Shown here: positions 11,815 to 52,499 of the stretch, piece after piece
Layout: each line of letters begins with the position of its first letter
How positions within the stretch are numbered: position 1 is the stretch's first letter
Origin: Ostreococcus lucimarinus
Taxonomy: Eukaryota
DNA: 64,000 nucleotides
NCBI GenBank assembly: GCA_000092065.1
Contig: CP000587.1
Direction: 5' to 3' (one strand)
Position numbers and translations under genes: made by a program
The notes under the pieces: generated by a model
What the model saw: the letters and a program-made list of their open reading frames with translations, nothing else
Told to the model about the DNA's origin: nothing
The model's database searches: none

Positions 11815-12370
11815 CTAAAACTGCAAGTTTGCGATTCTTTCCTTCTCCGCCTGTCGGCGCGCCAACTCGGCTCGTCCGGCCGCGGTCTTTTGCAGCTCGT
11901 GCACCGTCTTCTCCTTCCCACCCTTCACCGCAGCGCCTTGCGTCGTCACACCACCCGAAGCGGCGTGCGCGTCCGTCCAGTCTGCGAACACAAACGGGAG
12001 TTTGGCGTGTTTGCTATCCCAGTGCGCGACAGCCGTCTTCTCGCTCGGCGCGCCCTGCGCGCACACGGGACATTTGAACTTGGCGTGTCCCGCCGCTCCA
12101 CCGAGTCGGTCCGCCTTACCGCTCTTCCCACCGCCCTTGTTCGTGAGCGCGGCCGCAGCCTTACTCGCGAGCTCCTTCGCCGTGTGCTGCGCGATAATAT
12201 TCGCCGTCAGTCTCGTGGTCGCGTCGCGCGTCACGCGTGCGTCGCGCCCATCGCGCGTCCGTCCGCGGCGGCGGTCATCGCGCGGCGTCGTGCGGCGTCG
12301 CGCGGCGTCGCGACGCGACGAACGAACGACACGATGAACGAACCTTTTTCGGCTTCGCCTTTCCAGCCAT
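11815..12370 (-). CDS. SERF/4F5 + C2H2 (ZNF706-like) small basic protein, 2 exons: 12344..12370 (MAGKAKPKK) and 11815..12186
   Basis: Exon 2 encodes ...KGGGKSGK...AKFKCPVCAQGAPSEKTAVAHWDSKHAKLPF, matching the ZNF706 C2H2 (YTCTVC...FKQHFESKHPKTPL). No Met lies in frame upstream. ATGGCTGGAAAGGCGAAGCCGAAAAAG|GTTCGT (ORF 12275..12499(-) tail) gives a phase-0 first exon that joins to a cgcag| acceptor at 12187-12188. Confidence 0.5.
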
Positions 12371-12552
12371 CGCGCGCCGTCCGTCACCGTCGACCTTCGC
12401 GTCGTCGTGCGCGGCGCCCAGGCGCGCGCGTTCGAGACGTCGCCGCCGTGTCGGGCGGCGAGACTGCTTACTACACGGACGGCGACACGCGCGCGACACG
12501 TCGCTCGCCGTCCCACGCGCCGTTCCGTCTTTACTCGGCGCGCTCGATCACG

Positions 12553-13690
12553 ATGGCGACGACTCAAGAAGTGAAACTGTTCGGAAAGTGGACGTTCGAT
12601 GACGTTGAGGTGCGTGCGCTCCATCCCGACGCCGCGCGACGCACGCGCGGCGACACACCGGCGGCGATGCCGATGGCGATCGCGGCGTTTTAGGGTCTTC
12701 GCGAGGGCGTCGCGCGACGCGATCGCGCGCGCGCTGCGCGTCGATGAGCGCTCAAAATGAACGATGAGACTGACGAACGCGCGTGTTGGATTACAGATCA
12801 ACGACATCTCGTTGGAGGTTCGTCACCGAGACGAGCGATGCGCGCGAACGCGAGCGAGACGCGGGCGCGGAAGATGATTGGAAAACCCTGGCGCGTCCAC
12901 GGACACGTCGCGGGCGCGCCCGCGCGGCGCGGCGCGCGACGAACGCGAGACGCAGACGCGGAGTGGACGAGGGGCGATATAAAGCATCGTTTCGCTCGCT
13001 CCCGTCGGCGTGGACGCTCGCGGAACGACGACGTCGTCGGTGCCGTAGCACGGGGCTTTTGACTGGGACGTCGCGCGCCTCGAGGACGCAACGGGGGAAC
13101 TGCAGAATATGTCGTCGGGCGTGAAGCGACAACGTAGACGCGATCTCGAAACTGACCACACATCTGTTCGTCACGTCTCGCAGGATTACATTGCGGTGAA
13201 GCCGAAGTACGCGGTGTACGTGCCGCACACCGCGGGTCGATTCGCCGCCAAGCGTTTCCGCAAGGCGCAGTGCCCGATTGTTGAGCGCTTGGTGAACTCG
13301 CTCATGATGCACGGTCGTAACAACGGTAAGAAGTTGATGGCTGTTCGCATCGTGAAGCATGCGATGGAGATTATTCACTTGCTCACCGACCAAAACCCGG
13401 TGCAAGTGATCGTCGACGCCATCATTTACGCTGGTCCGCGCGAAGACGCGACGCGAATCGGTTCTGCGGGTGTGGTTCGCCGTCAAGCGGTCGATCTCTC
13501 CCCGCTCCGCCGCGTGAACCAAGCCATCTACTTGTTGACCACTGGTGCCCGCGAATCCGCCTTCCGTAACGTCAAGACGATTGCCGAGTGCTTGGCCGAC
13601 GAGTTGATCAACGCCGCCAAGCAGTCGAGCAACTCTTACGCGATCAAGAAGAAGGACGAATTGGAACGCGTCGCGAAGGCTAACCGATAA
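12553..13690 (+). CDS. RPS5: 40S ribosomal protein S5 (uS7), 3 exons: 12553..12609, 12797..12817 (21-nt microexon) and 13184..13690
   Basis: Exon 1 is [25 protein letters not shown]. The microexon is ttacag|ATCAACGACATCTCGTTGGAG|gttcgt (INDISLE). Exon 3 begins at cgcag|GATTACATT (DYIAVKPKY...). The spliced product FDDVEINDISLEDYIAVK aligns without a gap to human FDDVQINDISLQDYIAVK. The rest of exon 3 is near-identical to RPS5 through ...[18 protein letters not shown]. Confidence 0.9.
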
Positions 13691-13812
13691 GGGGTGAATC
13701 TTTCTGGCGTCGGAGACTATAGCTCATATACCGGTGTAAGAAGGAAAGGAAAATATAGCTTCAATAAACGCTTGCGTCGCGCGCGGAGTGATGCGTGTGC
13801 GAGGATTTCGAT

Positions 13813-16708: not shown

Positions 16709-16936
16709 TTCGAGTTGAAATACTAATCCGAGTTGAAATCACATCGCATCGCCACCCTCGTCGTCGCGCCGCCCTCGCGCGTGGTGTTCGTTCTGCGCTC
16801 TGACTGCACTCCATATGTAAAACCCCGGTCGGTCGCGGACGGCAGTCGACGCGACGTTTGGAACGCTTTATGGCGACGTTTGGGTTTGCCCGCACGCCGC
16901 GGCGCACCGTACGCACCGTGGCGCCGCTGACGACGC

Positions 16937-19840: not shown

Positions 19841-20752
19841 CTAAGGCTGCTGAAGAAAAGCTAAGGCTGCGAGCAAGACGATCTGCACCACGAAACCGGG
19901 AGCTAACGATGGATCGGGCAATAAGTTCGAGTACATCAGGGTCTTACGCGCGCCCTCGCCGACGGCATCGAGCAAACCAGCGTACTTTTCGCTCTCGTAC
20001 TCCAAACCGCCTTCATCTATGAGCGCCGGGAATCCACCAGGGACGTATCTAACGTCCGTGTACCCAGCTTGCACGAGCTCGTACGCCGCGCGCAAGCTCA
20101 ACGAATCTCCACGGTCGCTGACAGCGGTTGAACCATTGAGTGGGGCGATGTCGAGATCGCCCCCTCGCAAATCGACGAGGACGACGGCGTCCCGGCGATT
20201 TTTCGTCACCTCAGCCACGACGTCTACGAACGCGACGTTGCGTTCCTTCAGCCCACCCTTGATGGCCAAGAAGTACCCACTCGCGCGTCTCAACACGTTT
20301 TCCATGGGCACTAAATACGGTGCGCTCTTCGTTCCCACCAGCCTCCACTCCGCGTGTTCGAGCGGTTGTCTCACGTCGACGACGACGCCTCTTCTCTTCC
20401 CCGACAACATCTCCGCCACCTCGTTCGCCGTCGCCGCGCGCACCTTTTTACTCTTCACCAGCGTTTCGTATATCTCACCGTATTTCGGGCTTCCCGGTCC
20501 CTTTCCCGGGATAACGCTCGACGCCGACGTCGACGTCGACGCCCGCGTCGTCGTCGCTCTCGCCATCTTCTTCGTCTTGGTCGTCGTTCGTCGTCGTTCG
20601 ACGCCTCGAGGCGAGTTCGACCTCGCCGTCGACGCGCTCGACGCGCGCATCGTCTTCGTCTTCGTCGCGCGTCGCGCCTCGCGCGTCGCGCCTCGGTGCG
20701 CCGCGGAGTGGTTCGACGCCGACGCATCCGTCGCGGCGTGACGTCGACCCAC
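19841..20752 (-). CDS. Rhodanese-like domain protein with a C-terminal transmembrane anchor (plastid STR-like)
   Basis: The rhodanese fold shows in VVVDVRQPLEHAEWRLVGTKSAPY...VVLVDLRGGDL...AGYTDVRYVPGGFPAL. C-terminal TM is FVVQIVLLAALAFL. The S/T/R-rich N-terminus is a possible transit peptide; the true start may be an internal Met (~20566). Confidence 0.6.
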   Translation of the reverse strand: MGRRHAATDASASNHSAAHRGATREARRATKTKTMRASSASTARSNSPRGVERRRTTTKTKKMARATTTRASTSTSASSVIPGKGPGSPKYGEIYETLVKSKKVRAATANEVAEMLSGKRRGVVVDVRQPLEHAEWRLVGTKSAPYLVPMENVLRRASGYFLAIKGGLKERNVAFVDVVAEVTKNRRDAVVLVDLRGGDLDIAPLNGSTAVSDRGDSLSLRAAYELVQAGYTDVRYVPGGFPALIDEGGLEYESEKYAGLLDAVGEGARKTLMYSNLLPDPSLAPGFVVQIVLLAALAFLQQP

Positions 20753-20796
20753 ATCGCGTCGCGTCGCGACTCTGTCCGACGCGCGCGCGCTCGAAC

Positions 20797-25339: not shown

Positions 25340-26004
25340 ATGAGCGTGAACGCGACAGCGGCGATCGATGGGACGTCGAGCGCGAAGACGAACGCGAGCG
25401 ATGGCGGACACTCTGATTCTGCTGCGGTCGCGAGGAGGTGAGACGACTCGTCTCGACTCGAACGCGACGATGGAATAGAAACCGCCCCGTCGACGGACCT
25501 CGCGAGCCCGCGCGAAGCGAAGAGGCGACTGACCGATTACCGTGGTCTCCTTCGAAACGACTCGTGCGAACGAATAGATTGCAAAGCGAATTGATGAGCC
25601 TGATGACGAGCGCCGATAGTGGCATCTCGGCGTTTCCAGATGGCGATAACATTTTTTCCTGGGTGGGGACCATCGAGGGCGCGCTCGGGACGTGCTACGA
25701 GAACCTCAAGTACAAGCTGTCGCTGACTTTCGCGAACGATTACCCATTCAAGGCACCGACGGTAAAATTTGAGACCCCATGCTTTCATCCGAACGTCGAT
25801 CAGTACGGAAACATTTGCTTGGACATTTTGAAAGAAAAGTGGAGCCCGGTGTACAACGTGAGAACGATTTTGTTGAGCATTCAGTCGTTGTTGGGCGAAC
25901 CGAATAACGATTCGCCGCTCAACGTCGCCGCGGCGCAGCTCTGGGCGCAACCTGAGGAGTACAAAAAGGTGCTACTGAAGAAATACAAGGAAGATTCGAT
26001 GTAA
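25340..26004 (+). CDS. UBE2C: Ubiquitin-conjugating enzyme E2 C (UbcH10/UBC19-20 type), 2 exons: 25340..25437 and 25578..26004
   Basis: Exon 2 is a near-identical UBC core ([19 protein letters not shown]...[19 protein letters not shown]...[14 protein letters not shown]). The N-terminal exon MSVNATAA...SAAVAR ends ag|GTGAGA in phase 2, and the acceptor aatag|A rebuilds ...[11 protein letters not shown], matching human KRLQQELMTLM. Confidence 0.85.
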
Positions 26005-26256: not shown

Positions 26257-26884
26257 ATGGAGACGAGCTTGCGTTACGACACCACCTCGCGTTCGCTTTC
26301 GCTCTTCGCCAAGGAAAGATTCACGAATTCGGAAGACGTCGTTCTCACGGTACGCATCGCGATGAGACGCATTCCAACGACGCATTCCGACGACGACGCG
26401 CTCGTCGCAATCCGCTGACGCACCGACGCCTTCTTCTCGCGCGCAGGTTTCTGGGAGTCTAGACACTCGCGATGGGCGCATGGACGGTAAAGCACACGTG
26501 CGCAAACGACTTTTCTCCCCGGCGAAGTCCTCGCCGCTCGTACCCGATCGCGCGGACATCGGATTGACGTACGAGACGAAGCTGGACGACGTGCGCTACG
26601 GCGCGCGGGCGCGCAAAACCGTGGACGTGTCGCCGTCGAAGGATGGGATGAGCACGGTGACATTGAGAGGCGGGGTATCGTACGGGGTGAAACGTTCTAA
26701 GCCCTTGATCGAGGGTACGATAGAACTCACGCACAAGGTGTTCAACTTTCAAGAGGACCAAGACTTGCGCTTGCGTGTCGGGTACGATTTGGTGAAGCGG
26801 GAACCGTACGCACATATTCGCGAAAACAACTGGAGTTTCAAGACTGATTTCCAAAAGAGTTGGAGCGTGTACTATGACTTGTAG
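26257..26884 (+). CDS. OEP21: Chloroplast outer-envelope pore protein OEP21 homologue, 2 exons: 26257..26349 and 26447..26884
   Basis: Exon 1 METSLRYDTTSRSL...DVVLT|GTACGC matches the pea OEP21 N-terminus METSLRY. Exon 2 after gcgcag| continues VSGSLDTRDG... and ends VFNFQEDQDLRLRVGYDL...PYAHIRENNWSFKTDFQKSWSVYYDL (pea: VFNFQKDQDVRLRIGYE...[26 protein letters not shown]). Confidence 0.7.
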
Positions 26885-29064: not shown

Positions 29065-31551
29065 ATGAGCGATCGACGCGTGATCGCGCTTGAAGATGGT
29101 TGGGGGAACATGGAGGTGCGTCGACGGACGATTTGGAATCAAACGCTCGAGGACGCCGAGAGCTCGCGAGGCGCGGGAGAAACGAGACGTACTGACGAGA
29201 TCGTGACGTTTGACGACGCGCAGGATGGTATCATGAAACTTAGACGCATTCTAGATCAGGAGGATGCGGAATCGTTCACGTCGGAAGAGTACATGAATCT
29301 TTACACGTGCGTAGGACGACGCGTTGACCGCTCGCGGGGCGGTTGGGGGCGCGCGCTCGCGCGCTCGCGCTCAAAGACCCCCCGAAACAAGTGGCGCGGT
29401 GATCGCATGGACTGACGCAATCCAACAACATTTACACGTTCTTGCAGGACGATTTACAACATGTGCACGCAGAAGGCGCCGTACGATTTTTCCGAAGAGT
29501 TGTACAAGCGCTACGAGGCCGCGTTTAACCAATACATCAACTCAAAGGTTTTACCGGCGCTCGTGGAAAAAAAGGGAGAGTACATGCTGAGAAGCTTGAT
29601 GAGTCGATGGGAAAATCACAAGATAATGGTTCGCTGGCTGTCTCGGTTCTTCAACTATCTCGACAGATACTACGTCCAGCGCCATCACTACGCGACACTC
29701 AATCAAGTCGGCGTGGGTTGCTTCCGAAGACTGGTGTACGAAGAAATCAAGCCGAGCATGAAGACGGCGGTGTTGGCCCTCATAGACAAAGAGCGAGAAG
29801 GAGAAAAAAGTGATAGAGGTCTCATCAAGAGCATCACGTCAATCTTCGTCGAGATGGGGTTGGGTACGATGGACGCATACCAAAACGATTTCGAAAACGA
29901 CTTGCTCACGCACACATCATCATTTTACACTCGCAAGGCGACGCAGTGGATCGCTGAAGACTCGTGTCCGGCGTATCTCATCAAAGCGGAAGAGTGTTTG
30001 CATAGCGAACGCGAACGTGTGCAACAATACTTGCATCAGAGCACCGAGTCGAAGTTGATATCAAAGGTTGAGCAGCAGCTCCTCGAGCAGTACGAAACTG
30101 AGCTGCTGGAAAAGGAGAATAGCGGTTGCGCAGCGCTCTTGGTTGACGACAAGAAGGAGGACCTAGCCCGCATGTTCCGTCTCTTTAGCTCGGTACCGAA
30201 AGGATTGGCGCCGATAGCTCAGATTTTCAAAACGCACGTTCAAAAAGAAGGGATGAGCCTGGTGAATTCCGCCGAACAGGCGGCGGCGGCGATGAAAGGG
30301 AACAAGGAAAAGCCGACGACGTCTACGTCGATTGAACAGGTCTTTACTCGAAGTGCGATCGACCTGTACGACAAATATAGTGGTTATGTGAACGATTGCT
30401 TTGGTTCCAACGCACTCTTCAACCGCGCGCTCAAGGAGGCTTTTGAATACTTCTGCAACAAGGGCATCGGTGAAATCTCGACGGCGCAGCTACTCGCAGA
30501 TTTTGCGGATAAGCTGTTGCGAAAGGGTGGGAGCGAAAAGTTGAGCGATGAGAAGATGGAAGAGACGCTGGATAAAGTTGTGAAGCTCTTGGCATACATC
30601 AGCGATAAGGATATGTTTGGGGAGTTTGCTAGCAAAAGGCTTTCTCGACGCCTGTTGCAAGACACGTCTGCGAGTCAGGATTATGAGCGCTCCATCTTGA
30701 GTAAACTCAAGACGTCGTGCGGCGCGCAGTTTACATCGAAGATGGAGGGTATGGTGAATGATGTGCAGTCTGCGCGAGACACTCAAGATGTGTTTGAGAG
30801 ATGGGTAGACGAAGACGCTGCTAATCGCAAGACTTGCATCGATTTCAACGTCACCATCTTGACGCACGGTTTCTGGCCTTCATGGAAGCCCATCCAGGTG
30901 GAGCTGTGTGACGAGTTCGCGCAGTGTGTGGAAACGTTTCAAACTTTCTATGATGCTAAGATGAGCCAAAGAAAGCTCACGTGGGTGCATCAACTCGGAG
31001 CAGTCGTGCTAAACGTCAAGTACGAAGCCAAGACTATAGAAATGCACATGCAAACGCCCCAATGCTCTGTTTTGTTGCTCTTTCGGAATGAAAAAGAGCT
31101 GTCGATGCAAAAGGTCATAGAAAAGACAAAAATGCCAGCTGATGCCGTGAAGCGAGCGCTCTATTCGCTCTCGTGTGCCAAGTATAAGATTCTGAACAAG
31201 TCCCCCGAGGGCAAGACGGTGAATCCCGAAGACGTCTTTTCGTTTAACGAAAAATTCACCGATCGTTCGCGACGCATCAAGATTGCATTGCCACCTCCCG
31301 ATGAGAGAAAAGCTACGATTGAGAACGTCGTACAAGATCGCCGTCATGCCATCGATGCAGCCATCGTGCGAGTGATGAAGACTCGCAAGGCGTTGGCATA
31401 CAACGAGCTCGTCGTCGAAGTCGTGAACCAACTCCAACAGAGCTTCCTCCCGGAAGCAAAGATGATCAAAATGCGAGTCGATGACCTCATCAACAAGGAA
31501 TACATCATGCGCGACGAAGAAAACTCGCAAGTTTTCAAGTACATCGCCTAG
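29065..31551 (+). CDS. CUL1: Cullin-1 (SCF scaffold), 3 exons: 29065..29115, 29224..29306 and 29448..31551
   Basis: Exon 1 MSDRRVIALEDGWGNME|GTGCGT. Exon 2 gcgcag|DGIMKLRRILDQEDAESFTSEEYMNLYT(ac|GTGCGT). Exon 3 ttgcag|g-[14 protein letters not shown]... The spliced N-terminus aligns to Arabidopsis CUL1 ([26 protein letters not shown]...[22 protein letters not shown]). The rest matches along the full length, including the neddylation-region and C-terminal blocks (IVRIMK...; KMRVDDLINKEYIMRDEENSQVFKYIA). Confidence 0.9.
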
Positions 31552-31683: not shown

Positions 31684-32682
31684 TCAAAGAGTGACGTGGT
31701 TGGGGCGCTTGTACTTGATGATCGTCTTGGAGGCCTTGCTCGGGTGACGAGTCACCTTGGTCACGACCGGGAAGGACAAGTCGTCTTGAATGAACTGGCG
31801 CGTGTTCTCGCGGCGAACATCCTTGTCGGCAACCTCCGCAATCTTAATGATTTGCAAGCACGAAGCACGCACACGGTGGCGGGAAGCCATTTCCTCGTAG
31901 AGCGCATCCACCGCCGCGTTCATCGTCGTCTCGCGGTACTCCTTATACGAGTTGTGGTAACCCGTGCGGGACTGGTAACGGATCCAGATGCCGAAGTTCT
32001 TCACGGTCGTCGTGTCCGCCTCAAAGATCTATTCGTCATTGTGAACGAATCAACACTCGTCAGTCTCTCATTCCGCGTTTTTCATCGTCGCGACGCGCGT
32101 TTAACACGATTCGCGTCGCTCAAAGTCGCGTTCGCGTCCGCGTCCCGCTCTAGGGCTTTCACCCATCCACAAAGACGCACCTCGTTGCACGCGATGATTT
32201 GGCCGTTCGCCTTCTTCACCTTCTTGAGGCGAGACATGAAGTACCAGAACTTCGATCGCGCCTTGACGTCATCGAGCGCCCACAACTTCATGCGGAACAC
32301 CTCCGGCTCGGGGTGCGCATCGGTCGGCACGTGTCGGCCGACGACTTGGTATTGGTGGTACTGCGTCGAGCAATCATTCGCGCGTTTTCTCGTCAGTCGA
32401 TCGTTCGTCGAGCGCTTCGATCGCGCGCATCGCGAGCATGAAATTATCTTCCCCCGAACGCGCCGCCGCGCGCGCGACGTCCGCGCGCGCGTCCCACCGC
32501 GCGCGCGTCGTCCCATCGTCCCGTCGTCGCCCGTAGGGTTTCGCCGCGATCGCTCCGTCCGACGCTTTCGCGTCTCGCGTCGCGCGCGCCGCGCCGCGCG
32601 CGCCGCGCGTCGCGCGCGCGCGTCATCGTTTTCGCATCTCGCGCTGTCCACCGCGCGCGCCACGCACCCTAATTTTCGCCAT
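31684..32682 (-). CDS. RPL18A: 60S ribosomal protein L18a (eL20), 3 exons: 32668..32682, 32181..32360 and 31684..32028
   Basis: Exon 1 ATGGCGAAAATTAGG|GTGCGT (MAKIR). Exon 2 gacgcag|[14 protein letters not shown]...[16 protein letters not shown]. Exon 3 aatag|[26 protein letters not shown]... Arabidopsis RPL18a is [14 protein letters not shown]...[17 protein letters not shown]. Confidence 0.85.
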
Positions 32683-35715: not shown

Positions 35716-36984
35716 CTATCGCGCTACTTCTACAGTTCTACTCTTTTCCTTCTTTTCCTTCTTTTGCTTCTTCTCCTTCTTGTCCTTCTTCTCCTTCTTC
35801 TCCTTCTTCGCCTTTTCGTTTTTCCGACGCGCGTCGTTCTTCGCAACGTCGTCGTCGTCGTCGTCGCCGAAGTCGGTTCGTCTGACGCCCGTCCACTCGC
35901 TCTTCAACACGCCTCTGCCGCCGAGACCTCGCTTCGTGCCCTTGGCGACGTTTGTTTCGTGCGCGGATTTAAATAAAGCCTCTTGATCGTTCTCGGTGAA
36001 TCCCTTGCCGCGCTTAGCGCGATCGGCGCCGTCTTCGTCGTCCGCGGCGCCGTCGTCGTTCAAGTCGCGCTCGCGTTTCGAGCCGACCAAGCCGCCCCAG
36101 GCGAAACCCGCGCGCGTCCACCAATCGCTGAGTTTGGTGCTCAAAGACTTTTCACCCTCGTACGACACGCCCGAAGGTCTCACCGTCGTTTCGACCGCAC
36201 CTTCGCCGTCGGATTTGCGCTTTTTCTTGTCCTTCTTAGACTTTTCCTTTGGCTTTTTCTTCGTCTCCGCGGCGGCGGGCGCCGACGCGCTCCCGCGTTG
36301 AATCCCATACTTGGCCAACTGTTCCGCCTCAAACTTTGCGATGCGTTCGAGCTTACCCACGCGCCCACCGAACGTGGATCCGCGATGATTATCCTCCGCC
36401 AGCTCTCGCATGAGCTGCAAATCGCTCTTCGATCCGCTAAACGCCACGCCGTCGCGTCCCGTCGCCGTCCCCAGTCTCGCCGCGACTTCATCCTCGCTCG
36501 AATCCTCGCTCTCGCTCGAGTCTCCATCGCGTCCCGACGTCGACGTCGACGACGTCGTCTTCCCATCCTCCTCGCCTCCGACGACGCGCGCAATCTTGCT
36601 CGCCGCGTTCGCGTACGTCCCCTCCCACCACTTTTCGTCCCACGCGTACCTCGTCTTCCTCTTCCCCACGCCCGCGTTATCCTCGCGCTTCACCACCTCG
36701 ATCGCCTCCGCGCGTCCGTGTCGTCTTTTCCCCAGTCCATCGCCCCTGTCGCGCGCGCGGGGTCGTTCGCGCGCCGTCAGTCTCCGCTCTTCTCTTCGGG
36801 GTCGGGCGTCCCGCCGCCGGTCGTCGGTCGCGTCGGTCGCCTCGGTCGTCGGTCGCGCGCACTTGGACCATCCCATCGCGCGCAGCACGCGCTCGCCCAT
36901 GCCGCCGTACGACTTCGCCCCCGGCGCGGCGTCGTGCGTCGGCACCTTCATCGCGTCGTCGCCCGCGCGCGTCTCTGCGGGCAA
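35716..36984 (-). CDS. PINX1-like G-patch protein with Lys/Glu-rich C-terminal tail, 2 exons: 36863..36984 and 35716..36745
   Basis: GERVLRAMGWSK (aa|GTGCGC) ... cgacag|g-GDGLGKRRHGRAEAIEVVKREDNAGVGK rebuilds a G-patch (human PINX1 GQRMLEKMGWSKGKGLGAQEQGATDHIKVQVKNNHLGLG). The 117-nt intron is in frame, which is why the ORF track reads through it. The C-terminus is a KKEKKEKKDKK repeat. Confidence 0.65.
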   Translation of the reverse strand: MPAETRAGDDAMKVPTHDAAPGAKSYGGMGERVLRAMGWSKCARPTTEATDATDDRRRDARPRREERRLTARERPRARDRGDGLGKRRHGRAEAIEVVKREDNAGVGKRKTRYAWDEKWWEGTYANAASKIARVVGGEEDGKTTSSTSTSGRDGDSSESEDSSEDEVAARLGTATGRDGVAFSGSKSDLQLMRELAEDNHRGSTFGGRVGKLERIAKFEAEQLAKYGIQRGSASAPAAAETKKKPKEKSKKDKKKRKSDGEGAVETTVRPSGVSYEGEKSLSTKLSDWWTRAGFAWGGLVGSKRERDLNDDGAADDEDGADRAKRGKGFTENDQEALFKSAHETNVAKGTKRGLGGRGVLKSEWTGVRRTDFGDDDDDDVAKNDARRKNEKAKKEKKEKKDKKEKKQKKEKKEKSRTVEVAR

Positions 36985-46367: not shown

Positions 46368-46560
46368 CGCGCGCGCGCCGCTCTGCCGAGCCGCCGGCGC
46401 GTCGCCGGCATTCGTCGACGCGTTCGAGTCGGCACAGACGCGCTCGCGAACGCATCGCGCGCCGAACGAGCGCGACGACTCGGCGTCGCTCGGTCGCGCG
46501 CGTCGTCGGACCTCGCGCCGCGCCCGTCGTCCGCGTCGCTCGCGCGCGCGCGTTCGGACG

Positions 46561-48705
46561 ATGTTTCGATTGACGACGACGTCCCCGGCGTTGGCGACGC
46601 GATGCGCGCTCGGACGGCGCATCGCGGGCGCGCATCGCGCGCGAATGACGACGTGCAACGCACGGCGGCACGATGTCGTCGGAACGCGCGTCGTGGGCGC
46701 GCGACGAGACGCGAGGACGCGATGGACGGGGGCGGGCGCGAGCGCGGCGGCGAGCGATAAGGCGAACGCGACGGCGAGCGACGCGGAGCCGGTGAAACTG
46801 CTGACGAGCGATGAGAGCGAGAATTTGTTGAAAATACGACACACGGTGCGTTGGAAATGCGAGGCGTGGGGAGACTTGCGTCGGTGGTGGATCGGACGAC
46901 GACGCGCGAGGGGCGAGCGGAGGGGGTTTGTGCGCGACCTGAACCACGCAGGGACGAAAGGAGACTGACGATGGGTTCGCTGATTTTACGCTTCGCAGAG
47001 CGCGCACGTGATGGCGATGGCGGTGCAAAAGGTGTTTCCGAGCGCGCAGTGCACGATCGGGCCTTGGATCGACCGGGGATTTTATTACGACTTTTACTAC
47101 CCAGAGGGTTTCACCGATCAAGACATGAAGAAGATTCAAAAGGAAATGTATAAGATTATTCGCAAGGATTACCCGCTTCGCAGGGAGGAAGTGTCGCGAG
47201 AAGAAGCCGAACGCCGAATCCGGGAGATTAACGAGCCGTACAAGCTCGAAATCTTAGAAGCCATCAAGACGGAGCCGATTACGATTTATCACATCGGCGA
47301 CGAGTGGTGGGATTTGTGCGCGGGACCTCACGTGGAGTCCACGGGCAAGCTTGATCAGAAAGCGTTCGCGCTCGAAAGTTTGGCTGGGGCGTACTGGCGT
47401 GGTGACGAAACGAAGCCGATGTTGCAGCGCATTTACGGCACGGCGTGGGAGAATGAAGCACAGCTTCAGGCGTACAACGATTTCAAGGCGGAGGCGAAGC
47501 GTCGCGATCACCGAACGATCGGTAAGGATTTGGGTTTGTTCTCCCTTCAACAAGATAACGCTGGCGGCGGCTTGGTGTTTTGGCATCCGAAAGGCGCGCA
47601 CATGCGACACATGATCGAGACGTACTGGAAGGATCTCCATCTGGCGCGCGGGTACGAGCTCTTGTACTCACCGCACGTCGCCAGGCAAGAGTTGTGGAAA
47701 ACCTCTGGTCACAGCGATTTTTATTCCGAGAACATGTACCAGCCCATCAAGGTTGAAGATGAAATGTATCAGCTCAAACCGATGAACTGCCCGTTCCACA
47801 TCGTCGTTTACCAAGACGGATACTACTCGTACAAGGATTTACCCATTCGTTGGGCTGAGCTTGGCACGGTGTATAGATATGAACGTAGCGGCACCATGCA
47901 CGGCTTGTTCCGAGTGAGAGGTTTCACGCAGGATGACGCGCATATATTCTGCCTCCCGGATCAAATCACAGACGAGATCAAGAGCGTTCTCGATTTGACT
48001 GAAGAAATTCTGAGCACGTTTGGTTTTAAGGAGTTTGAAGTCAACCTATCCACCAGGCCGGAAAAGTCTGTCGGCGACGACAAGATTTGGGACACCGCGG
48101 AAGGTGCGCTTAAGGACGCATTGCAAATGAAGGGATGGGATTACATCGTCGACGACGGCGGTGGAGCGTTCTACGGGCCGAAGATTGACATTAAGATTTT
48201 GGACGCAATCGGGCGTAAGTGGCAATGCTCCACGGTGCAGCTCGACTTCAACCTGCCGGAGCGATTCGACCTATCCTACGTCGATCGCGAGAACGCAAAG
48301 CAGCGACCAATCATGATTCACCGCGCCATTTTCGGTTCCCTTGAGAGATTCTTCGGTATTCTCACCGAGAACTACGCCGGGGAGTTCCCGTTGTGGCTCG
48401 CCCCGATTCAAGTGCGCTTGCTTCCTGTGACGGACGAAGTCAGCGATTATACCGAAGGCGTCGCGAAAAAGCTCCGCGATGCGGGCGTGCGCGTTGAAAT
48501 TTGCACCGGACAACGTCTCGCTAAGCTCGTGCGCACGGCTGAGAAGGCAAAGATCCCGGTCATGGCGGTCGTCGGTAGAGAAGAAGCGGAGAACAACACG
48601 TTGGCTGTGCGTACGTTCAAGGATGGCGACGTCGGTACATTGTCTGTCGACGAAGTGTTGTCACGCGTCACCACCGCGAACGCGACAAAGGGTCAAAGCT
48701 TCTAG
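46561..48705 (+). CDS. Threonyl-tRNA synthetase, bacterial/organellar type with transit peptide, 2 exons: 46561..46845 and 46999..48705
   Basis: Exon 2 after cgcag| reads SAHVMAMAVQKVFPSAQCTIGPWIDRGFYYDF..., matching E. coli ThrS SSHILAHAVKQLFP...IGPVIDNGFYYD. The class II core is present (LKPMNCPFH, VRGFTQDDAHIFC). Exon 1 MFRLTTTSPALATRC... ends ...ENLLKIRHT|GTGCGT, corresponding to E. coli EGLEIIRHS. The N-terminus is S/T/R-rich. Confidence 0.8.
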
Positions 48706-48793: not shown

Positions 48794-49456
48794 TCAATCG
48801 AAGTCGCTGTCTTCGTCGTCGCTATTCAACGCCATCTTCGCCCCTCGACGAATATTCGTCGCCTTATCTATCACATTCATCGCCTTCTTAGCCGCCCGCG
48901 GGTTCGCATCGCAGTCGTTATCGCCACCTTCGTAATTAATCACCCCCTTCGAAGCGAGCACCAGACGCAAATGCTCTGTGGGAAAATCATCCGTCCCGCC
49001 GACGTCGTCGAAACCGACAATATAATCCACAACCTTGGTGTTACGAATCAGACAGAGCGTCGGCAACATCCAAATTTTAAGCTTTTCCGTCAAAAACGGC
49101 GACTTCTCGGCGTTGATTCTACAGACTAACGTCTCCGTGTGCTTCCTCGCCACCGCCGCGACGTGTTTATCCATCACCTCGCACGGCCACGACGAAGTTC
49201 TATAAAAATGTACAATCATCTTATCCTCTCCCTTCATCTTTTCGAAAAACGCTTTCTCATCATCTAAATCATTCACCACCCCGTGTCCACGCTCCAGCGC
49301 GCTCTTCCGCGCTTCGTGCGTCGATTTCATCGCCTCCAAGCGTTTCCTTCGAATATCCTCCAACGCGTCGCCGTCCATCTTTTCCAATCGATGCAGCTCA
49401 TCGTCCACGGAATCCTCCACCGCGCGCGCCATGTCGTACACCTTTTGCTCCACCAT
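48794..49456 (-). CDS. TXNDC9: Thioredoxin domain-containing protein 9 / phosducin-like protein 3 (PhLP3)
   Basis: Coiled N-terminus, then a Trx-like block FFEKMKGEDKMIVHFYR...WPCEVMDKH...IWMLPTLCLIRN...VVDYIVGFDDVGG...FPTEHLR, then an acidic C-terminus. Confidence 0.75.
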   Translation of the reverse strand: MVEQKVYDMARAVEDSVDDELHRLEKMDGDALEDIRRKRLEAMKSTHEARKSALERGHGVVNDLDDEKAFFEKMKGEDKMIVHFYRTSSWPCEVMDKHVAAVARKHTETLVCRINAEKSPFLTEKLKIWMLPTLCLIRNTKVVDYIVGFDDVGGTDDFPTEHLRLVLASKGVINYEGGDNDCDANPRAAKKAMNVIDKATNIRRGAKMALNSDDEDSDFD

Positions 49457-49875
49457 GGCCTATCGCGTTCGAGTTGCGTCAGTCGTCGTCCGTTCGCGTT
49501 CGGTCGCGGTCAACGCGCGCGCGACAGCTCGAAAGTCAAAAAATCAAATCGACGCGCGCGCGGCGTGTCGCTTTCACCGTCGCGCGCGGCGCTTTTCGAA
49601 CGCACCTGCATCGCGTCGTTAGCGTTCATCGCGCGCGCGTCCTCCGTCGTCGCACGCGGTGTGTCGTCGTCGCGATCGCGTCGTCGTCGCGTTCTGACGC
49701 TCGGAGTGAGCCGTGAGCGTAAAGTCTTCTTTGAGCGATACTGATTATAAAACTTCTCGAACGAGCGTCGCGCGCGCGAAGAATCGGACGAGCGAGGACG
49801 CCGAGCGATATCGCTCAAACGTCTTTTCTCGCACGTCGTCACCGATTCGCGCGGCACGGCGCCGTCGATTTGATT

Positions 49876-50559
49876 TTAAAGGTATGGATTCCGCGGTTTC
49901 GCCGTCAAAGCGACGCCGTCCAAGGCGCGCTTCAAATCTTCCTCGAATCCTTGCTCCAGAGGATCTCCCGGGCCGTACCTGCGAAGGACTCGGCCATCGC
50001 GACCGACTAAAAACTTGGTGTAATTCCAAGGAATTTCTCCGTCGAACGGCGGTCTCTTTAAAAACTCGTACACCGGCGATTGCTTCGCCGAACTCGTGAC
50101 GTCGTCCACCAACGGCGCCGTCAAAACCGCATCCGGATCATCCTTGAATTCCTCGTACGACGCCGGATCGATTCCTTTGCACCTGACCGGTTTAGCCTTG
50201 ACCGCGATTTTATCCATCACCGGAAACGTATCGACGCCGAATTTCTTATACGCGTACGCGCGTTCCATCTCGCTCGTTCCCGGCGCTTGGCACCCGAACT
50301 GATTCGCGGGAAACGCGATGATTTCAAACCCCCTATCGCGATACGTCTCATACATCCGCCTCAGCGCTGGGTAGTTGCTGTTCACCAGAGGTCACTCGCT
50401 CGCCACGTTGACGACGACGCTCACTTTGCCCCGATACGCCGCCAGCGGCGTCGGTTTCCCGTACTGCATCACCGTGAGATCGTACAACGACTCGGGCGAC
50501 TCCGCCGCGCGCGCCGGCGTCACCGTCACCATCGCCGCGAGCGTCGCGACGCGCGCCAT
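49876..50559 (-). CDS. GPX: Glutathione peroxidase with in-frame TGA (predicted selenocysteine) at the catalytic position; N-terminal signal/transit peptide
   Basis: ORF 50392..50784(-) ends ...GKVSVVVNVASE at a TGA (50392-50394). ORF 49876..50385(-) continues in the same frame as PLV-NSNYPALRRMYETYRDRGFEIIAFPANQFGCQAPG...WNYTKFLVGRDGRV. The concatenation aligns without a gap to GPX VNVAS[QK][CU]GLTNSNY...FPCNQFGGQEPG...KWNFTKFLVD. Proposed start is MARVATLAAM at 50559. Confidence 0.75.
50392..50394 (-). other. In-frame UGA codon, predicted selenocysteine, in the GPX active site
   Basis: It sits at the exact Cys/Sec position of the VNVAS-x-[C/U] motif. The read-through frame is conserved for 165 further codons. 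Confidence 0.7.
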
Positions 50560-50786
50560 CGCCCGTCGTCGCGTCGTCGTCGCGTCGTCGTCGTAAGCAT
50601 CGTCGACGGTTACCGCGACACCCCTACCGTTCGTCGCGCGCGTCGTCGTCGCCGTCGCGCGCGCTCGCCTCGTCGTCGCGCGCGTCGTCGTCATCGTCCG
50701 CGTCGCGCCCGCGCGCGCGGCCGTCGTCGACATGAATCGCCGCGCCGGCGCACCTCCGCGCGTCACAGAGTGTCGCGTCCGCATCC

Positions 50787-51785
50787 ATGTCGGCGCGCGC
50801 GTTCGCGTTCGCGTCGGCGTCGCGCGCGCAGCCGACGCGCGCGCTCGCGCGCCGTCGCGACGCGCGGAGACGCGCGTCGAACGCCGACGGCGCGTCGTCC
50901 TGGACCGTCGTCGTCGATCGCGCGTCGTCGCGCTTCGGCAGCGACCTGCTCGTCGAGCGCGTGTCGAGCGACTGCCCGAACGCCGCGTTCGCGGGCGCGC
51001 TGGTGCTGACGCGCGCGGACGCGCCCGACGCGGTGCTGAGCGAACGACGAGACGACGGACGCGAGTCGCGGTCGGGACGCGCGGTCGGGCGAGGCGGGGT
51101 GTTCGACGCGTTCGCGACGCTGCCGGCGACGCTCGAGGGCGAGGCGAGACGAGGGAAGAAGACGATCGGAATATTAGGCCTGGGGGCGGGCACGTGCGCG
51201 GAAATCATGGCGGGACATCACGACGACGTGGACATGATCGGGTGGGAGCTGGATCCAGCCATCGTGGAACTGGCGAGACGACACTTCGCGGTGGGGGATT
51301 TGGAACGCGAGGGGAGGTTGCGCGTCGTCACGGGGGACGCGTTCGAGGGGTGCGCGCGGAGCGAGATCGAGTTCGATGGACTCATCGTCGATTGTTTCGA
51401 TGAGAATTCAGTCGTGGTGGCGTGTTTGAAGGATAAAGCGACGTGGGAGGCGTTGGCGGCGCGACTGAAACCGGGCGGTCGCGTCGTGGCCAACGTGAGC
51501 ACGGGACGAGGGAAAGGCGCGAAGCTGGACGACGCCATCGCGTGCGCGCAGGCGCTCGCGGACGCGACGTCGGATGAAGTCACGATTTGGCGCGCGGGGG
51601 CGTGTTCGATATGGAACGAGCTCATTTTGAGCGGGCCCGAGGTGAATTGGCGTCGCGTCGCGGACGAGTACGGCGATTTCGCGAGTTTGACAAAGGATTG
51701 GTTTTACTTTAAAAAGCCAGCGGACGCGGCTTCCGGCGCGCCGTGGCTCGCGAAAACGCTCGGGGTAGACAACGATAGCGCATAG
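50787..51785 (+). CDS. Spermidine-synthase-like (PABS-fold) SAM-dependent transferase with N-terminal transit-peptide-like extension
   Basis: ILGLGAGTCAEIM...IGWELDPAIVELARRHF...LRVVTGDAFEG...FDGLIVDCFD matches the spermidine/spermine-synthase-like Rossmann layout. Confidence 0.55.
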   Translation: MSARAFAFASASRAQPTRALARRRDARRRASNADGASSWTVVVDRASSRFGSDLLVERVSSDCPNAAFAGALVLTRADAPDAVLSERRDDGRESRSGRAVGRGGVFDAFATLPATLEGEARRGKKTIGILGLGAGTCAEIMAGHHDDVDMIGWELDPAIVELARRHFAVGDLEREGRLRVVTGDAFEGCARSEIEFDGLIVDCFDENSVVVACLKDKATWEALAARLKPGGRVVANVSTGRGKGAKLDDAIACAQALADATSDEVTIWRAGACSIWNELILSGPEVNWRRVADEYGDFASLTKDWFYFKKPADAASGAPWLAKTLGVDNDSA

Positions 51786-51826
51786 CAAATACATTGTACA
51801 TTATTATAGAAACAACACGAATACAA

Positions 51827-52499
51827 TCAATCAAAGTCGCCGAAGACGCTTTGAATCGCCGCCTTCGTCAAACCATCCGGCGTGTGCGTCGCGCGAAATC
51901 CCGCTCGAATCGCCGCCTCAACGTTCCGCTCGTCGTCGTCGAACAACACCACGGTACCCCTAAACTTTTCCCACGCGTCTTCACCGTACTTTTCGCGCAA
52001 AAGTTCCTCTATTTGTCTATTCTTCCCGCCCTCGACCGCGCACCCATCCTTCACGCCGACGCGACTCGGCGTCGAAATGTCCGCTCGCGTCATCGCCCCC
52101 TCGCCCAACACGCGATCGACGTACGCTTGTATGACCGCATACTTGCCAAAACTCGTTATTTTCACATCCATCCCTCGTCGATTCGCGTACTCTGTCGCCC
52201 GCGCCGTCGTCGCGTCCGTCAGTCGTCTCGTCGTCGTCGTCGCGTCCGTCGACCGCGCGCGCGCTCGACCGCGGCTTCGAATCTCGCGGTCGAGCCTCTT
52301 CGTCTCTCGTCGCACCTAAAAACGCTCGAAAGCACTCGACGTCGACGAACTCTCGCTCGACGTCGCGCAGCTCGAGCGCCTCGACGCGCTCGACCGTGAC
52401 GCGCTCGGCGAACGAGTGCCGCGCGAGGACGGTGAGATCGAAATCGACGCACGCCAGGCGCGCGTCGCCGGACGCGGGCGCCGCGTCGTCGCGCGCCAT
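51827..52499 (-). CDS. MDP1: Magnesium-dependent phosphatase-1 (MDP-1, HAD superfamily), 2 exons: 52316..52499 and 51827..52191
   Basis: Exon 1 is MARDDAAPASGDARLACVDFDLTVL...ECFRAFL(g|GTGCGA), with the HAD DxDxT motif matching VFDLDYTLW. The intron ends gcgacag|. Exon 2 is ag-YANRRGMDVKITSFGK...TVVLFDDDERNVEAAIRAGFRATHTPDGL (human MDP1 [27 protein letters not shown]). The spliced length of 182 aa compares with 176 aa in human. Confidence 0.6.

What the first reader, a model, noticed from the sequence alone, without database searches (positions are those of the whole stretch)
11815..52499. Systematic 5'-biased short introns with GTGCGT/GTTCGT donors hide the first exons of at least nine genes
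For the following genes the ORF-track ORF lacks the conserved N-terminus, and the missing residues are found in frame a short distance upstream between consensus splice sites.
- RPS5: exons 12553-12609, 12797-12817 and 13184-13690.
- RPL18A: 32668-32682, 32181-32360 and 31684-32028.
- CUL1: 29065-29115, 29224-29306 and 29448-31551.
- UBE2C: 25340-25437 and 25578-26004.
- OEP21: 26257-26349 and 26447-26884.
- ThrRS: 46561-46845 and 46999-48705.
- PINX1-like: 36863-36984 and 35716-36745.
- MDP-1: 52316-52499 and 51827-52191.
- SERF-like: 12344-12370 and 11815-12186.
Donors are almost uniformly G|GTGCGT or G|GTTCGT. Introns are 97-370 nt, and all lie in the first ~100 codons. Several first exons are tiny (15, 21, 27, 51 nt). 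The PINX1-like intron is 117 nt and in frame, so the high-GC sequence reads straight through it without a stop. This shows long ORFs in this genome can conceal introns.
Basis: seen in the sequence. Interest (0 to 1): 0.6.

Follow-up and report, generated by a model that had tools for sequence, protein, structure and literature searches.

The report
Ordinary 5' introns in Ostreococcus genes
The window is nuclear DNA of the tiny green alga Ostreococcus lucimarinus, and the "hidden first exons" are real but ordinary spliceosomal introns of a type already described for this species; the useful by-product is that a few public gene models turn out to be wrong at their 5' ends.

Summary
Observation confirmed. 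All 12 introns in the nine listed genes have GT...AG ends, restore the reading frame and give complete proteins. Six spliced proteins equal RefSeq proteins of Ostreococcus lucimarinus CCE9901. These include the 15-nt RPL18A first exon and the 21-nt RPS5 micro-exon. The other two rest on homology across the junction; the PINX1-like one also has frameshifting indels between natural haplotypes.

I found a thirteenth intron in a tenth gene (thioredoxin-like, 49460-49605, 24-nt first exon), also transcript-confirmed.

Nothing is new in kind. The donor GTGCGTG and branch GACTGACG of non-chromosome-2 O. lucimarinus introns were published in 2008. The 5' bias of canonical Mamiellophyceae introns was published in 2013. 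The introns are unique sequences, not introner repeats.

Corrections:
- Donors match GTGCGT/GTTCGT exactly in 8 of 12.
- The 21-nt exon is a second exon.
- The PINX1-like gene starts at ATG 36951, not 36984.
- "SERF-like" is an MBS-type zinc-finger protein.

Three RefSeq models are wrong at the 5' end: PINX1-like keeps its intron as 39 codons, and ThrRS and the thioredoxin-like gene lack exon 1.

The parts
12187..12343 (-). Exon 1 is 12344-12370 (27 nt, MAGKAKPKK) and exon 2 is 11815-12186.
   Evidence: Signals are aag|GTTCGT, AGACTGACG and GCGCAG|. The spliced protein equals RefSeq XP_001418807.1. MxGKAKPKK|HTAKEL is contiguous in MMETSP transcripts, Klebsormidium and Brassica MBS2. No RNA contig was obtained.
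12610..12796 (+). RPS5 intron 1 (187 nt). Exon 1 is 12553-12609.
   Evidence: Signals are gag|GTGCGT, AGACTGACG and TTACAG|. Transcript contig L018 reads exon 1 | exon 2 | exon 3 exactly. The spliced protein equals XP_001418582.1.
12818..13183 (+). RPS5 intron 2 (366 nt). It follows the 21-nt micro-exon 12797-12817. Exon 3 is 13184-13690.
   Evidence: Signals are gag|GTTCGT, AAACTGACC and TCGCAG|. L018 contains ATCAACGACATCTCGTTGGAG between exon 1 and exon 3.
25438..25577 (+). UBE2C intron (140 nt, phase 2). Exon 1 is 25340-25437 and exon 2 is 25578-26004.
   Evidence: Signals are gag|GTGAGA, CGACTGACC 45 nt from the 3' splice site, and GAATAG|. The intron is absent from all eight RNA contigs L001-L008 (those that reach it: L001, L002, L004-L008). 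The spliced 174-aa protein is found exactly in Logan.
26350..26446 (+). OEP21-like intron (97 nt). Exon 1 is 26257-26349 and exon 2 is 26447-26884.
   Evidence: Signals are acg|GTACGC, CCGCTGACG and GCGCAG|. The intron is absent from L001-L004 and L007 but retained in L005. The spliced protein equals XP_001418587.1.
29116..29223 (+). CUL1 intron 1 (108 nt). Exon 1 is 29065-29115 (51 nt).
   Evidence: Signals are gag|GTGCGT, GTACTGACG and GCGCAG|. The intron is absent from L009-L014. The spliced protein equals XP_001418588.1.
29307..29447 (+). CUL1 intron 2 (141 nt, phase 2). Exon 2 is 29224-29306 and exon 3 is 29448-31551.
   Evidence: Signals are cac|GTGCGT, GGACTGACG and TTGCAG|. The intron is absent from L009-L014.
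32361..32667 (-). RPL18A intron 1 (307 nt). Exon 1 is 32668-32682 (15 nt).
   Evidence: Signals are agg|GTGCGT, CGACTGACG and ACGCAG|. L010, L011 and L014 join 32361 to 32668. The spliced protein equals XP_001418811.1.
32029..32180 (-). RPL18A intron 2 (152 nt). Exon 2 is 32181-32360 and exon 3 is 31684-32028.
   Evidence: Signals are gag|GTGCGT, AGACTGACG and GAATAG|. The intron is absent from L009-L012 and L014.
36746..36862 (-). PINX1-like (G-patch) intron. It is 117 nt, phase 2, in frame and has no stop. Exon 1 is 36863-36951 (ATG at 36951, not 36984) and exon 2 is 35716-36745.
   Evidence: Signals are caa|GTGCGC, AGACTGACG and CGACAG|. RefSeq XP_001418813.1 reads through it. Eleven homologues have contiguous GWxxGxGLGK where it sits. 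The G-patch score is 46.8 bits spliced against 26.4 bits unspliced. Haplotypes L023-L025 carry +1/+1 or -1 indels inside it. No RNA contig was obtained.
46846..46998 (+). ThrRS intron (153 nt). Exon 1 is 46561-46845 (transit-peptide-like N-terminus plus conserved LLKIRHT) and exon 2 is 46999-48705.
   Evidence: Signals are acg|GTGCGT, AGACTGACG and TCGCAG|. RNA contig L031 joins 46845 to 46998/9 and extends 5' to 46431. The alignment to a solved ThrRS (6vu9_A) is ungapped across the junction. The exon end and splice signals are conserved in a related lineage while the intron has diverged. RefSeq XP_001418593.1 lacks exon 1.
49460..49605 (-). Exon 1 is 49606-49629 (24 nt, MNANDAMQ) and exon 2 is 48794-49459.
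   Evidence: Signals are cag|GTGCGT, CGACTGACG and CGATAG|. The spliced 229-aa protein is present exactly in Logan RNA contigs L029-L034. The ATG, donor, branch and acceptor are conserved in a lineage about 80% identical, with an in-frame 3-nt indel in exon 1. RefSeq XP_001418816.1 starts at 49456.
52192..52315 (-). MDP1-like (FCP1-homology/acid-phosphatase-like) intron, 124 nt, phase 1. Exon 1 is 52316-52499 and exon 2 is 51827-52191.
   Evidence: Signals are tag|GTGCGA, CGACTGACG and CGACAG|. The intron is absent from L019-L021. The spliced protein equals XP_001418817.1.

Best explanation
The window is nuclear DNA of Ostreococcus lucimarinus CCE9901, from a 783,246-bp chromosome. The features are canonical U2-type (GT-AG) spliceosomal introns of the class that Mamiellophyceae carry on their normal, high-GC chromosomes.

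What is shown here:
- The pre-mRNA is cut at a strong donor (consensus G|GTGCGT).
- The intron carries a strong branch-point-like motif (GACTGACG) whose A lies 19-45 nt before a YAG acceptor.
- The exons are joined so that a very short first exon (15-285 nt) is fused in frame to the main ORF.

What follows from published work on intron-poor genomes:
- The signals are near-invariant because the genome is intron-poor.
- The introns cluster at the 5' end. The usual explanation is that intron loss by recombination with reverse-transcribed mRNA removes 3' introns preferentially, and/or that promoter-proximal introns are retained because they help expression. Two ribosomal-protein genes are among the hosts.

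My inference: any ORF-based, prokaryote-style reading of this genome truncates or corrupts the N-termini of about a quarter of the genes in this window.
For: Organism:
- Six spliced proteins are identical to CCE9901 RefSeq entries on a 783,246-bp contig.
- Contigs L015-L017 are 100% identical over up to 8.5 kb.

Splicing:
- Eleven of the 13 introns are missing at the exact predicted junctions from RNA-derived contigs from many independent runs.
- One contig (L005) has the UBE2C intron removed but the OEP21-like intron retained. That is what RNA does and what an intron-less DNA allele does not.
- The genomic haplotypes L022 and L024, which cover six of the transcript-confirmed introns (OEP21-like, CUL1 x2, RPL18A x2, most of ThrRS), keep all of them.

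Frame and homology:
- Pfam domains are complete after splicing.
- ThrRS aligns ungapped across its junction with a solved structure.
- MBS-like and PINX1-like homologues are contiguous across their junctions.

Signals:
- All 13 introns are GT...AG.
- Donors are GTGCGT x7 and GTTCGT x2, plus four one- or two-base variants.
- ACTGAC is present in 12 of 13 and GACTGACG in 9 of 13.

Relaxed constraint in the introns:
- SNPs per kb are 6.6 in introns against 1.4 in CDS.
- All 18 indels lie outside the modelled CDS.

Literature:
- For EST-confirmed non-chromosome-2 introns of O. lucimarinus, 87% contain ACTGAC and 66.5% GACTGACG. The donor is the 'atypical consensus GTGCGTG' (PMC2483917).
- Introns are in excess in highly expressed O. 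lucimarinus genes (PMC2367439).
Against: - I obtained no RNA contig for the MBS-like or the PINX1-like intron. The public annotation treats the PINX1-like one as coding.
- The donor and branch hexamers are not enriched in the window as a whole, so motif evidence alone is weak.
- The cause of the 5' bias (3' loss versus selective retention) is taken from the literature and was not tested here.
- The 5'-bias sample is 13 introns. Outside the 13.5 kb covered by multi-gene RNA contigs, mid-gene in-frame introns could have been missed.
Confidence: 0.95

Rival explanations
1. The segments are not spliced. The genes start at downstream AUGs (or at GTG/TTG), as a plain ORF reading and some RefSeq models (ThrRS 564 aa, thioredoxin-like 220 aa, PINX1-like 411 aa read-through) imply.
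For: - RefSeq models XP_001418593.1, XP_001418816.1 and XP_001418813.1 are of this kind.
- Contig L005 retains the OEP21-like intron.
- No RNA contig was obtained for PINX1-like or MBS-like.
Against: - RNA contigs lack 11 of the 13 segments at the exact GT/AG borders.
- Conserved residues are encoded upstream of the introns: RPS5, ThrRS LLKIRHT, MBS MxGKAKPKK and the first third of the G-patch.
- Frameshifting indels segregate inside the PINX1-like segment.
Confidence: 0.02
2. The introns are introner elements: copies of a mobile, repeated intron family like those of Micromonas, recently inserted near 5' ends.
For: - The splice signals are strikingly uniform.
- The GACTGACG branch is identical to that of the Micromonas RCC299 IE-C introners (PMC3879977).
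- Short CG-rich matches exist between some introns.
Against: - All-against-all BLAST of the introns finds only matches of 66 nt or less (best E 7e-9, 41 nt), which are low-complexity (CGCGAC-type), occur in both orientations, and also hit promoter regions. There is no shared body sequence.
- Lengths range from 97 to 366 nt.
- The ThrRS and thioredoxin-like introns sit at the same positions in a lineage about 80% identical, with their interiors diverged, so they are old.
- Introners favour gene centres, not 5' ends.
Confidence: 0.02
3. The PINX1-like 117-nt segment is an 'exitron': a facultatively spliced, protein-coding piece of an exon, so that both a 411-aa and a 372-aa protein are made on purpose.
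For: - Its length is a multiple of 3 and it has no stop in frame.
- RefSeq annotates it as coding.
- The read-through ORF is intact in the window and in L022.
Against: - Three of five haplotypes carry +1/+1 or -1 indels in it that would frameshift the entire downstream protein if it were retained.
- It interrupts the G-patch motif between GWSK and GDGLGK.
- None of 11 homologues has the insert.
- At 77% GC, a stop-free frame over 39 codons is not surprising.
Confidence: 0.03
4. The introns belong to the outlier-chromosome class (chromosome 2 / BOC1 type): very short, AT-rich and with weak signals.
For: None beyond the fact that O. lucimarinus has such a class.
Against: - These introns are 97-366 nt and 66.5% GC, with strong donor and branch motifs.
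- The window is 58% GC.
- BOC1 introns are defined as shorter than 75 nt and below 43% GC.
Confidence: 0.01

Closest known systems
Canonical (non-chromosome-2) spliceosomal introns of Ostreococcus lucimarinus and other Mamiellophyceae (Irimia & Roy 2008, PMC2483917; Verhelst et al. 2013, PMC3879977)
   Same: - The organism is the same.
- The donor consensus is GTGCGT(G) and the branch is (G)ACTGAC(G).
- The size range is about 100-370 nt.
- There are few introns per gene, they are singleton sequences, and they lie mostly in the 5' part of genes.
   Different: Nothing differs in kind. In this window four of the 13 donors deviate by one or two bases, and one branch is GCTGACG.
Introns of intron-poor hemiascomycete yeasts such as Saccharomyces cerevisiae (GTATGT ... 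TACTAAC; enriched in ribosomal-protein genes; 5'-biased). This comparison is from established knowledge, and the branch statistics are in PMC2483917.
   Same: - Donor and branch motifs are near-invariant.
- Introns lie close to the start codon and first exons are tiny.
- Ribosomal-protein genes are among the hosts.
   Different: - The consensus sequences differ (GTGCGT / ACTGAC against GTATGT / ACTAAC).
- These introns are GC-rich rather than AT-rich.
- A larger fraction of genes carries introns: 10 of roughly 40 in this window, and 16-20% genome-wide (PMC2367439).
Micromonas introner elements (IE-A to IE-D)
   Same: - They are functional GT-AG introns in a sister genus.
- IE-C shares the GACTGACG branch motif.
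   Different: - Introners are multi-copy families with conserved bodies. They favour gene centres and avoid ribosomal-protein genes.
- The introns here share no body sequence. They sit at 5' ends, including in two ribosomal-protein genes.
Exitrons / in-frame retained introns
   Same: The PINX1-like intron is a multiple of 3 in length and stop-free, and it lies inside an annotated coding exon.
   Different: Frameshifting indels segregate inside it and it splits a conserved motif. It therefore shows no sign of being under coding constraint.

Membership tests
U2-type spliceosomal introns, Mamiellophyceae canonical class | GT at the 5' end and AG at the 3' end | tested here: met
   All 13 introns meet this. 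Acceptors are CAG x10 and TAG x3.
U2-type spliceosomal introns, Mamiellophyceae canonical class | Strong donor consensus (A)G|GTGCGT(G) | tested here: met
   Donors are GTGCGT x7 and GTTCGT x2, plus GTGCGC, GTGCGA, GTACGC and GTGAGA once each. The base at -1 is G in 11 of 13. This matches the published consensus.
U2-type spliceosomal introns, Mamiellophyceae canonical class | ACTGAC / GACTGACG branch-point motif shortly upstream of the acceptor | tested here: met
   ACTGAC is present in 12 of 13 and GACTGACG in 9 of 13. The branch A lies 19-45 nt from the 3' splice site. Twelve of the 22 ACTGAC sites in the whole window are these. Use of this adenosine as the branch point was not tested.
U2-type spliceosomal introns, Mamiellophyceae canonical class | Physical removal from mature RNA at the predicted junctions | tested here: met
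   Met for 11 of 13 introns in RNA-derived Logan/ENA contigs. Not obtained for the MBS-like and PINX1-like introns.
U2-type spliceosomal introns, Mamiellophyceae canonical class | Removal restores a continuous ORF that is homologous across the junction | tested here: met
   Supported.
U2-type spliceosomal introns, Mamiellophyceae canonical class | Singleton sequence on a normal high-GC chromosome (not the low-GC outlier region) | tested here: met
   There is no body similarity between introns. The window is 58% GC and the introns 66.5% GC. The chromosome number itself was not determined.
Introner elements | Many copies sharing a conserved internal sequence | tested here: not met
   Only matches of 66 nt or less (best E 7e-9, 41 nt), all low-complexity CG-rich and in both orientations, were found. 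This was tested within the window only.
BOC1 / chromosome-2-type introns | Shorter than 75 nt, below 43% GC, weak splice signals | tested here: not met
   These introns are 97-366 nt and 55-77% GC, with strong signals.
U12-type (minor spliceosome) introns | Donor [AG]TATCCTT and branch TCCTTAAC (from established knowledge) | tested here: not met
   No donor or branch resembles these.
Exitron (PINX1-like segment only) | Length a multiple of 3, no in-frame stop, lies inside an annotated coding exon | tested here: met
   The segment is 117 nt, is stop-free in frame, and is coding in XP_001418813.1.
Exitron (PINX1-like segment only) | The retained form encodes a functional protein, so the segment is under coding constraint | tested here: not met
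   Indels of +1, +1 and -1 occur in three of five haplotypes, against none in 17,380 nt of CDS (Fisher p = 3e-7). The insert is absent from 11 homologues and splits the G-patch.

The most novel reading that the evidence does not exclude
The retained 5' introns may not be mere survivors of 3'-biased intron loss. They may be functional promoter-proximal elements.

- They are markedly richer in GC and CpG than the coding sequence: 66.5% GC and CpG observed/expected 1.92, against 56.9% and 1.58.
- They share CGCGAC-type low-complexity stretches with the 5' intergenic regions of neighbouring genes.
- They sit within the first 100 codons.

They could therefore act as intron-borne expression enhancers that selection keeps in the most compact free-living eukaryotic genome. 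A narrower variant is that in-frame, stop-free introns like the PINX1-like one are common enough to have corrupted a measurable share of public Ostreococcus protein models.
Probability: 0.2. Interest if true: 0.35.

Novelty: already known. Interest (0 to 1): 0.12.

Why it matters
Biologically this confirms textbook-level knowledge for this alga, so it opens no new question.

Its practical value is for annotation. In one 64-kb window, three RefSeq proteins of the reference strain are wrong at the N-terminus because a short 5' intron was missed:
- ThrRS loses its targeting sequence and a conserved segment.
- The thioredoxin-like protein loses 9 residues.
- The PINX1-like protein carries a spurious 39-residue insert in its G-patch.

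Every prokaryote-style ORF call on metagenomic Ostreococcus contigs repeats such errors; there are hundreds of such truncated entries in the protein clusters seen here. Anyone using these proteins for targeting prediction, orthology or structure prediction should re-derive the 5' ends using the GTGCGT / GACTGACG / YAG signals together with RNA data.

Tried and rejected
1. **Motif statistics as proof.** The donor and branch hexamers and the combined pattern are not enriched over dinucleotide shuffles. I therefore dropped motif counts as evidence and used transcripts, homology and polymorphism instead.

2. **Fetching the annotated genome locus.** Look-ups through RPS5 and MDP1-like failed because they are not on record. 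Contigs L015-L017 turned out to be unspliced genomic DNA and say nothing about ThrRS splicing.

3. **A wrong inference about the thioredoxin-like intron.** I first read the 'MQAMVEQK...' proteins of related strains as proof that relatives lack this intron. That was wrong. The related DNA has the intron, and the ORF caller simply starts at an ATG inside its 3' end (...ATGCAG|GCGATG).

4. **Further intron candidates from the CTGAC scan, rejected or left open.**
- 56990(-) lies inside a 130-codon, high-GC3 ORF, 56877-57269(-), that reads like a glyoxalase/VOC-type protein (not searched against any library).
- 16786-16954(+) has a non-YAG acceptor and no frame logic.
- 62825-62890(-) is a 66-67-nt AT-rich stretch spanning a stop codon in a 3' region. 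This remains unresolved but is unlikely.
- 11561-11611 or 11561-11620(+) is an in-frame 51- or 60-nt candidate near the 3' end of the PRMT7-like gene. It is far shorter than any verified intron, and the full 1080-aa ORF equals RefSeq.

5. **The introner hypothesis.** Rejected.

6. **Rfam and tRNA scans of the window.** Both found nothing.

Full report
**What the window is.** An exact-sequence look-up shows that six of the proteins are identical to RefSeq proteins of Ostreococcus lucimarinus CCE9901 on a 783,246-bp contig. These six are RPS5, RPL18A, CUL1, the OEP21-like protein, the MDP1-like protein and the 'SERF-like' protein. Genomic contigs from public runs are 100% identical to the window over up to 8.5 kb. 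The window is therefore nuclear DNA of this prasinophyte. It is 58% GC and very gene-dense, with no tRNA or Rfam hit.

**Checking the observation.** All 12 claimed introns begin with GT and end with AG. They are 97-366 nt long and lie at codons 6-96. Donors are GTGCGT (6), GTTCGT (2), and GTGCGC, GTGCGA, GTACGC and GTGAGA (one each). 'Almost uniformly' therefore means 8 of 12 exact. Each intron has CTGAC, and 11 of 12 have ACTGAC, with the A 20-45 nt upstream of a YAG acceptor.

The motifs by themselves are not above chance in this GC-rich sequence:
- GTGCGT occurs 66 times against 67.6 in dinucleotide shuffles.
- GTTCGT occurs 73 times against 77.
- ACTGAC occurs 22 times against 24.9.
- The composite donor...CTGAC...YAG pattern occurs 64 times against 81.

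What is not chance is their placement. Half of all ACTGAC sites in 128 kb of two-strand sequence fall in the sense strand of the proposed introns, just before the acceptor.

**Transcript evidence.** Public Logan/ENA assemblies contain short contigs, 99.4-100% identical to the window, in which precisely the proposed segments are missing:

| Intron | Missing segment | Contigs |
|---|---|---|
| UBE2C | 25438-25577 | seven contigs (L001, L002, L004-L008) |
| OEP21-like | 26350-26446 | five contigs |
| CUL1 | 29116-29223 and 29307-29447 | six contigs |
| RPL18A | 32029-32180 and 32361-32667 | three contigs reach the 15-nt first exon |
| RPS5 | both introns | L018 reads ...GTTGAG\|ATCAACGACATCTCGTTGGAG\|GATTAC..., showing the 21-nt micro-exon |
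| MDP1-like | 52192-52315 | L019-L021 |
| ThrRS | 46846-46998 | L031 reads ...CGACACACG\|AGCGCGCACG... and continues 130 nt upstream of the ATG at 46561 |

These contigs come from RNA rather than from intron-less DNA alleles. One contig (L005) has the UBE2C intron removed but the OEP21-like intron retained. The genomic haplotypes that cover the OEP21-like, CUL1, RPL18A and ThrRS introns keep them.

The multi-gene RNA contigs cover 25261-32695 and 50720-56831. They show no other removed segment. In an unbiased 13.5 kb, the only introns are therefore the 5' ones.

**The two introns without RNA contigs.**

*The 'SERF-like' gene.* This is really a homologue of plant METHYLENE BLUE SENSITIVITY (MBS) C2H2 zinc-finger proteins. 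Its spliced N-terminus MAGKAKPKK|HTAKEL is contiguous and nearly invariant in MMETSP transcripts, Klebsormidium and Brassica. The 27-nt first exon is therefore right.

- RefSeq XP_001418813.1 (411 aa) is the unspliced read-through from ATG 36951.
- Eleven homologues at 36-67% identity all have contiguous GWxxGxGLGK exactly where the 39-residue insert sits. One homologue's similarity begins exactly at exon 2.
- Splicing raises the Pfam G-patch score from 26.4 bits (profile positions 17-43) to 46.8 bits (positions 2-43).
- Four natural haplotypes, 99.1-99.8% identical to the window, were compared over the parts of 25728-46980 each covers. They carry +1 and +1 (L023) or -1 (L024, L025) indels inside the 117 nt. 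They carry no indel at all in 17,380 nt of modelled CDS (Fisher p = 3e-7).
- Donor, branch and acceptor are invariant in all four.

Retention would frameshift the whole protein in most haplotypes, so the segment is an intron. The only coordinate error is that exon 1 starts at ATG 36951, not at the TTG at 36984 taken from the ORF track.

**A tenth gene.** The one strong GACTGACG site in a gene's sense orientation and 5' region not yet accounted for (49482, minus strand) led to a thirteenth intron.
- The thioredoxin-like gene has a 24-nt first exon (49629-49606, MNANDAMQ).
- The intron is 146 nt (49605-49460; cag|GTGCGT ... CGACTGACG ... gatag|).
- Exon 2 starts one codon before the RefSeq start.
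- The spliced 229-aa protein exists exactly in six or more Logan RNA contigs.
- In a related Ostreococcus lineage (about 80% nucleotide identity) the ATG, donor, branch and acceptor are conserved. Exon 1 differs by an in-frame 3-nt indel, and the intron interior is scrambled by indels.
- The same loci show the ThrRS exon-1 end, donor and acceptor conserved around a diverged intron.

With 13 introns, the mean relative position in the CDS is 0.13 and the maximum is 0.36.

**What it is and how it works.** These are canonical U2-type spliceosomal introns. SNP density is 6.6 per kb in introns, 1.4 per kb in CDS and 11 per kb in intergenic DNA. All 18 indels lie outside the modelled CDS. The introns share no body sequence, only short CG-rich low-complexity matches in either orientation that also hit promoter regions. 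They are therefore not introner elements. They are also neither the short AT-rich outlier-chromosome class nor U12-type.

**Comparison with the literature.**
- Irimia and Roy (2008) reported that 87% of EST-confirmed non-chromosome-2 introns of O. lucimarinus contain ACTGAC and 66.5% contain GACTGACG. They reported a very strong 5' splice site with the 'atypical consensus GTGCGTG' (PMC2483917).
- Verhelst et al. [quoted passage not shown] They ascribe this to 3' intron loss (PMC3879977).
- Lanier et al. [quoted passage not shown]

The window fits all of this. The pattern parallels intron-poor yeasts (strong signals, tiny first exons, ribosomal-protein hosts) with a different consensus.

**Verdict.** The observation and the interpretation are correct and carefully made, but the phenomenon is already known, so interest is low. 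The residual value is for annotation.
- RefSeq ThrRS (564 aa) lacks exon 1.
- The RefSeq thioredoxin-like protein lacks its first 9 residues.
- The RefSeq PINX1-like protein contains a translated intron.
The PRMT7-like and amine-oxidase genes do too. The eIF2A and 2OG-oxygenase suggestions were not tested.

Noticed in passing
The thioredoxin-like gene has a 24-nt first exon and a 146-nt intron with perfect GTGCGT / GACTGACG / TAG signals. RefSeq XP_001418816.1 starts one codon into exon 2.
   Followed up: yes
window 35716-36951 (-), 46561-48705 (+), 48794-49629 (-): Three RefSeq models of the reference strain are wrong at the 5' end. PINX1-like XP_001418813.1 translates its intron. ThrRS XP_001418593.1 starts at ATG 47011 and lacks exon 1. 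The thioredoxin-like protein lacks exon 1. In addition, the RefSeq ABCG transporter is 1268 aa against a 1386-aa ORF (20797-24957), and the RefSeq rhodanese is 150 aa against a 214-aa ORF (37095-37739).
   Followed up: partly
It gave no Pfam hit.
   Followed up: yes
window 49876-50559 (-), TGA at 50392-50394: This is a glutathione-peroxidase gene whose ORF is interrupted by an in-frame TGA at the active-site position (VNVASE-TGA-PLVNSNY). It is presumably a selenocysteine codon. This is a second, non-intron way in which the ORF track loses an N-terminus. By the accession numbering, it appears to have no RefSeq protein between the thioredoxin-like and MDP1-like genes.
   Followed up: partly
L023:8442-9712 and L025:8442-9715; insertion point at window 36981/36982: Two natural haplotypes carry a ~1.27-kb insertion encoding a PPK2 (polyphosphate kinase 2) family protein about 30 nt upstream of the PINX1-like ATG. 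It is absent from the window and from L022 and L024. L022 has 13- and 17-nt insertions at the same spot. This is a gene presence/absence polymorphism at a hypervariable junction.
   Followed up: no
window, whole; introns listed in parts: CTGAC is depleted about two-fold in the window (65 observed against 117 expected from dinucleotide shuffles). That would fit selection against stray branch sites, but it could also reflect codon usage. The introns are richer in GC and CpG than the CDS (66.5% and observed/expected 1.92, against 56.9% and 1.58). They share CGCGAC-type low-complexity stretches with 5' intergenic regions (for example near 20750-20890, 41040-41180 and 52600-52780).
   Followed up: partly
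window 46431-46622: The ThrRS transcript starts at or before 46431. The first ATG of the long divergent DCAF1-like ORF (41400-46985, minus strand) is at 46622. Either the two genes overlap head to head or the DCAF1-like gene starts at a downstream ATG; ORF callers chose positions near 46199 or 46367.
   Followed up: no
window 11561-11611 or 11561-11620 (+): This is an in-frame, stop-free 51- or 60-nt candidate intron (gcg|GTGCGC ... TGACTGACA ... TTAG| or CTAG|) near the 3' end of the PRMT7-like gene. It is much shorter than any verified intron, and the unspliced ORF equals RefSeq. It is probably a chance match but has not been excluded.
   Followed up: partly
window 62825-62890 (-): A GTTCGT donor overlaps the stop codon of the upstream minus-strand ORF. 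It is followed 47 nt later by ATACTGACA and then CATAG|. This makes a 66-67-nt AT-rich candidate 3' intron, or it is chance in a 3' UTR.
   Followed up: no
L018:1-247: The first 247 nt of the RPS5 transcript contig (ERR9850600) match nothing in the window. This is probably an assembly chimera in a metatranscriptome.
   Followed up: partly
window 28414-29064: The 650-nt spacer between the divergent Ham1-like and CUL1 genes is the most polymorphic stretch of the region. It has more than 20 SNPs and indels across L022 and L024, including an 11-nt indel called at adjacent positions with opposite sign in L022 and L024.
   Followed up: no
window 57349-60393 (-): The window happens to encode the U5 snRNP 116-kDa GTPase (EFTUD2/Snu114), a core spliceosome protein. 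It appears as a single 1014-codon ORF with no sign of an intron.
   Followed up: no
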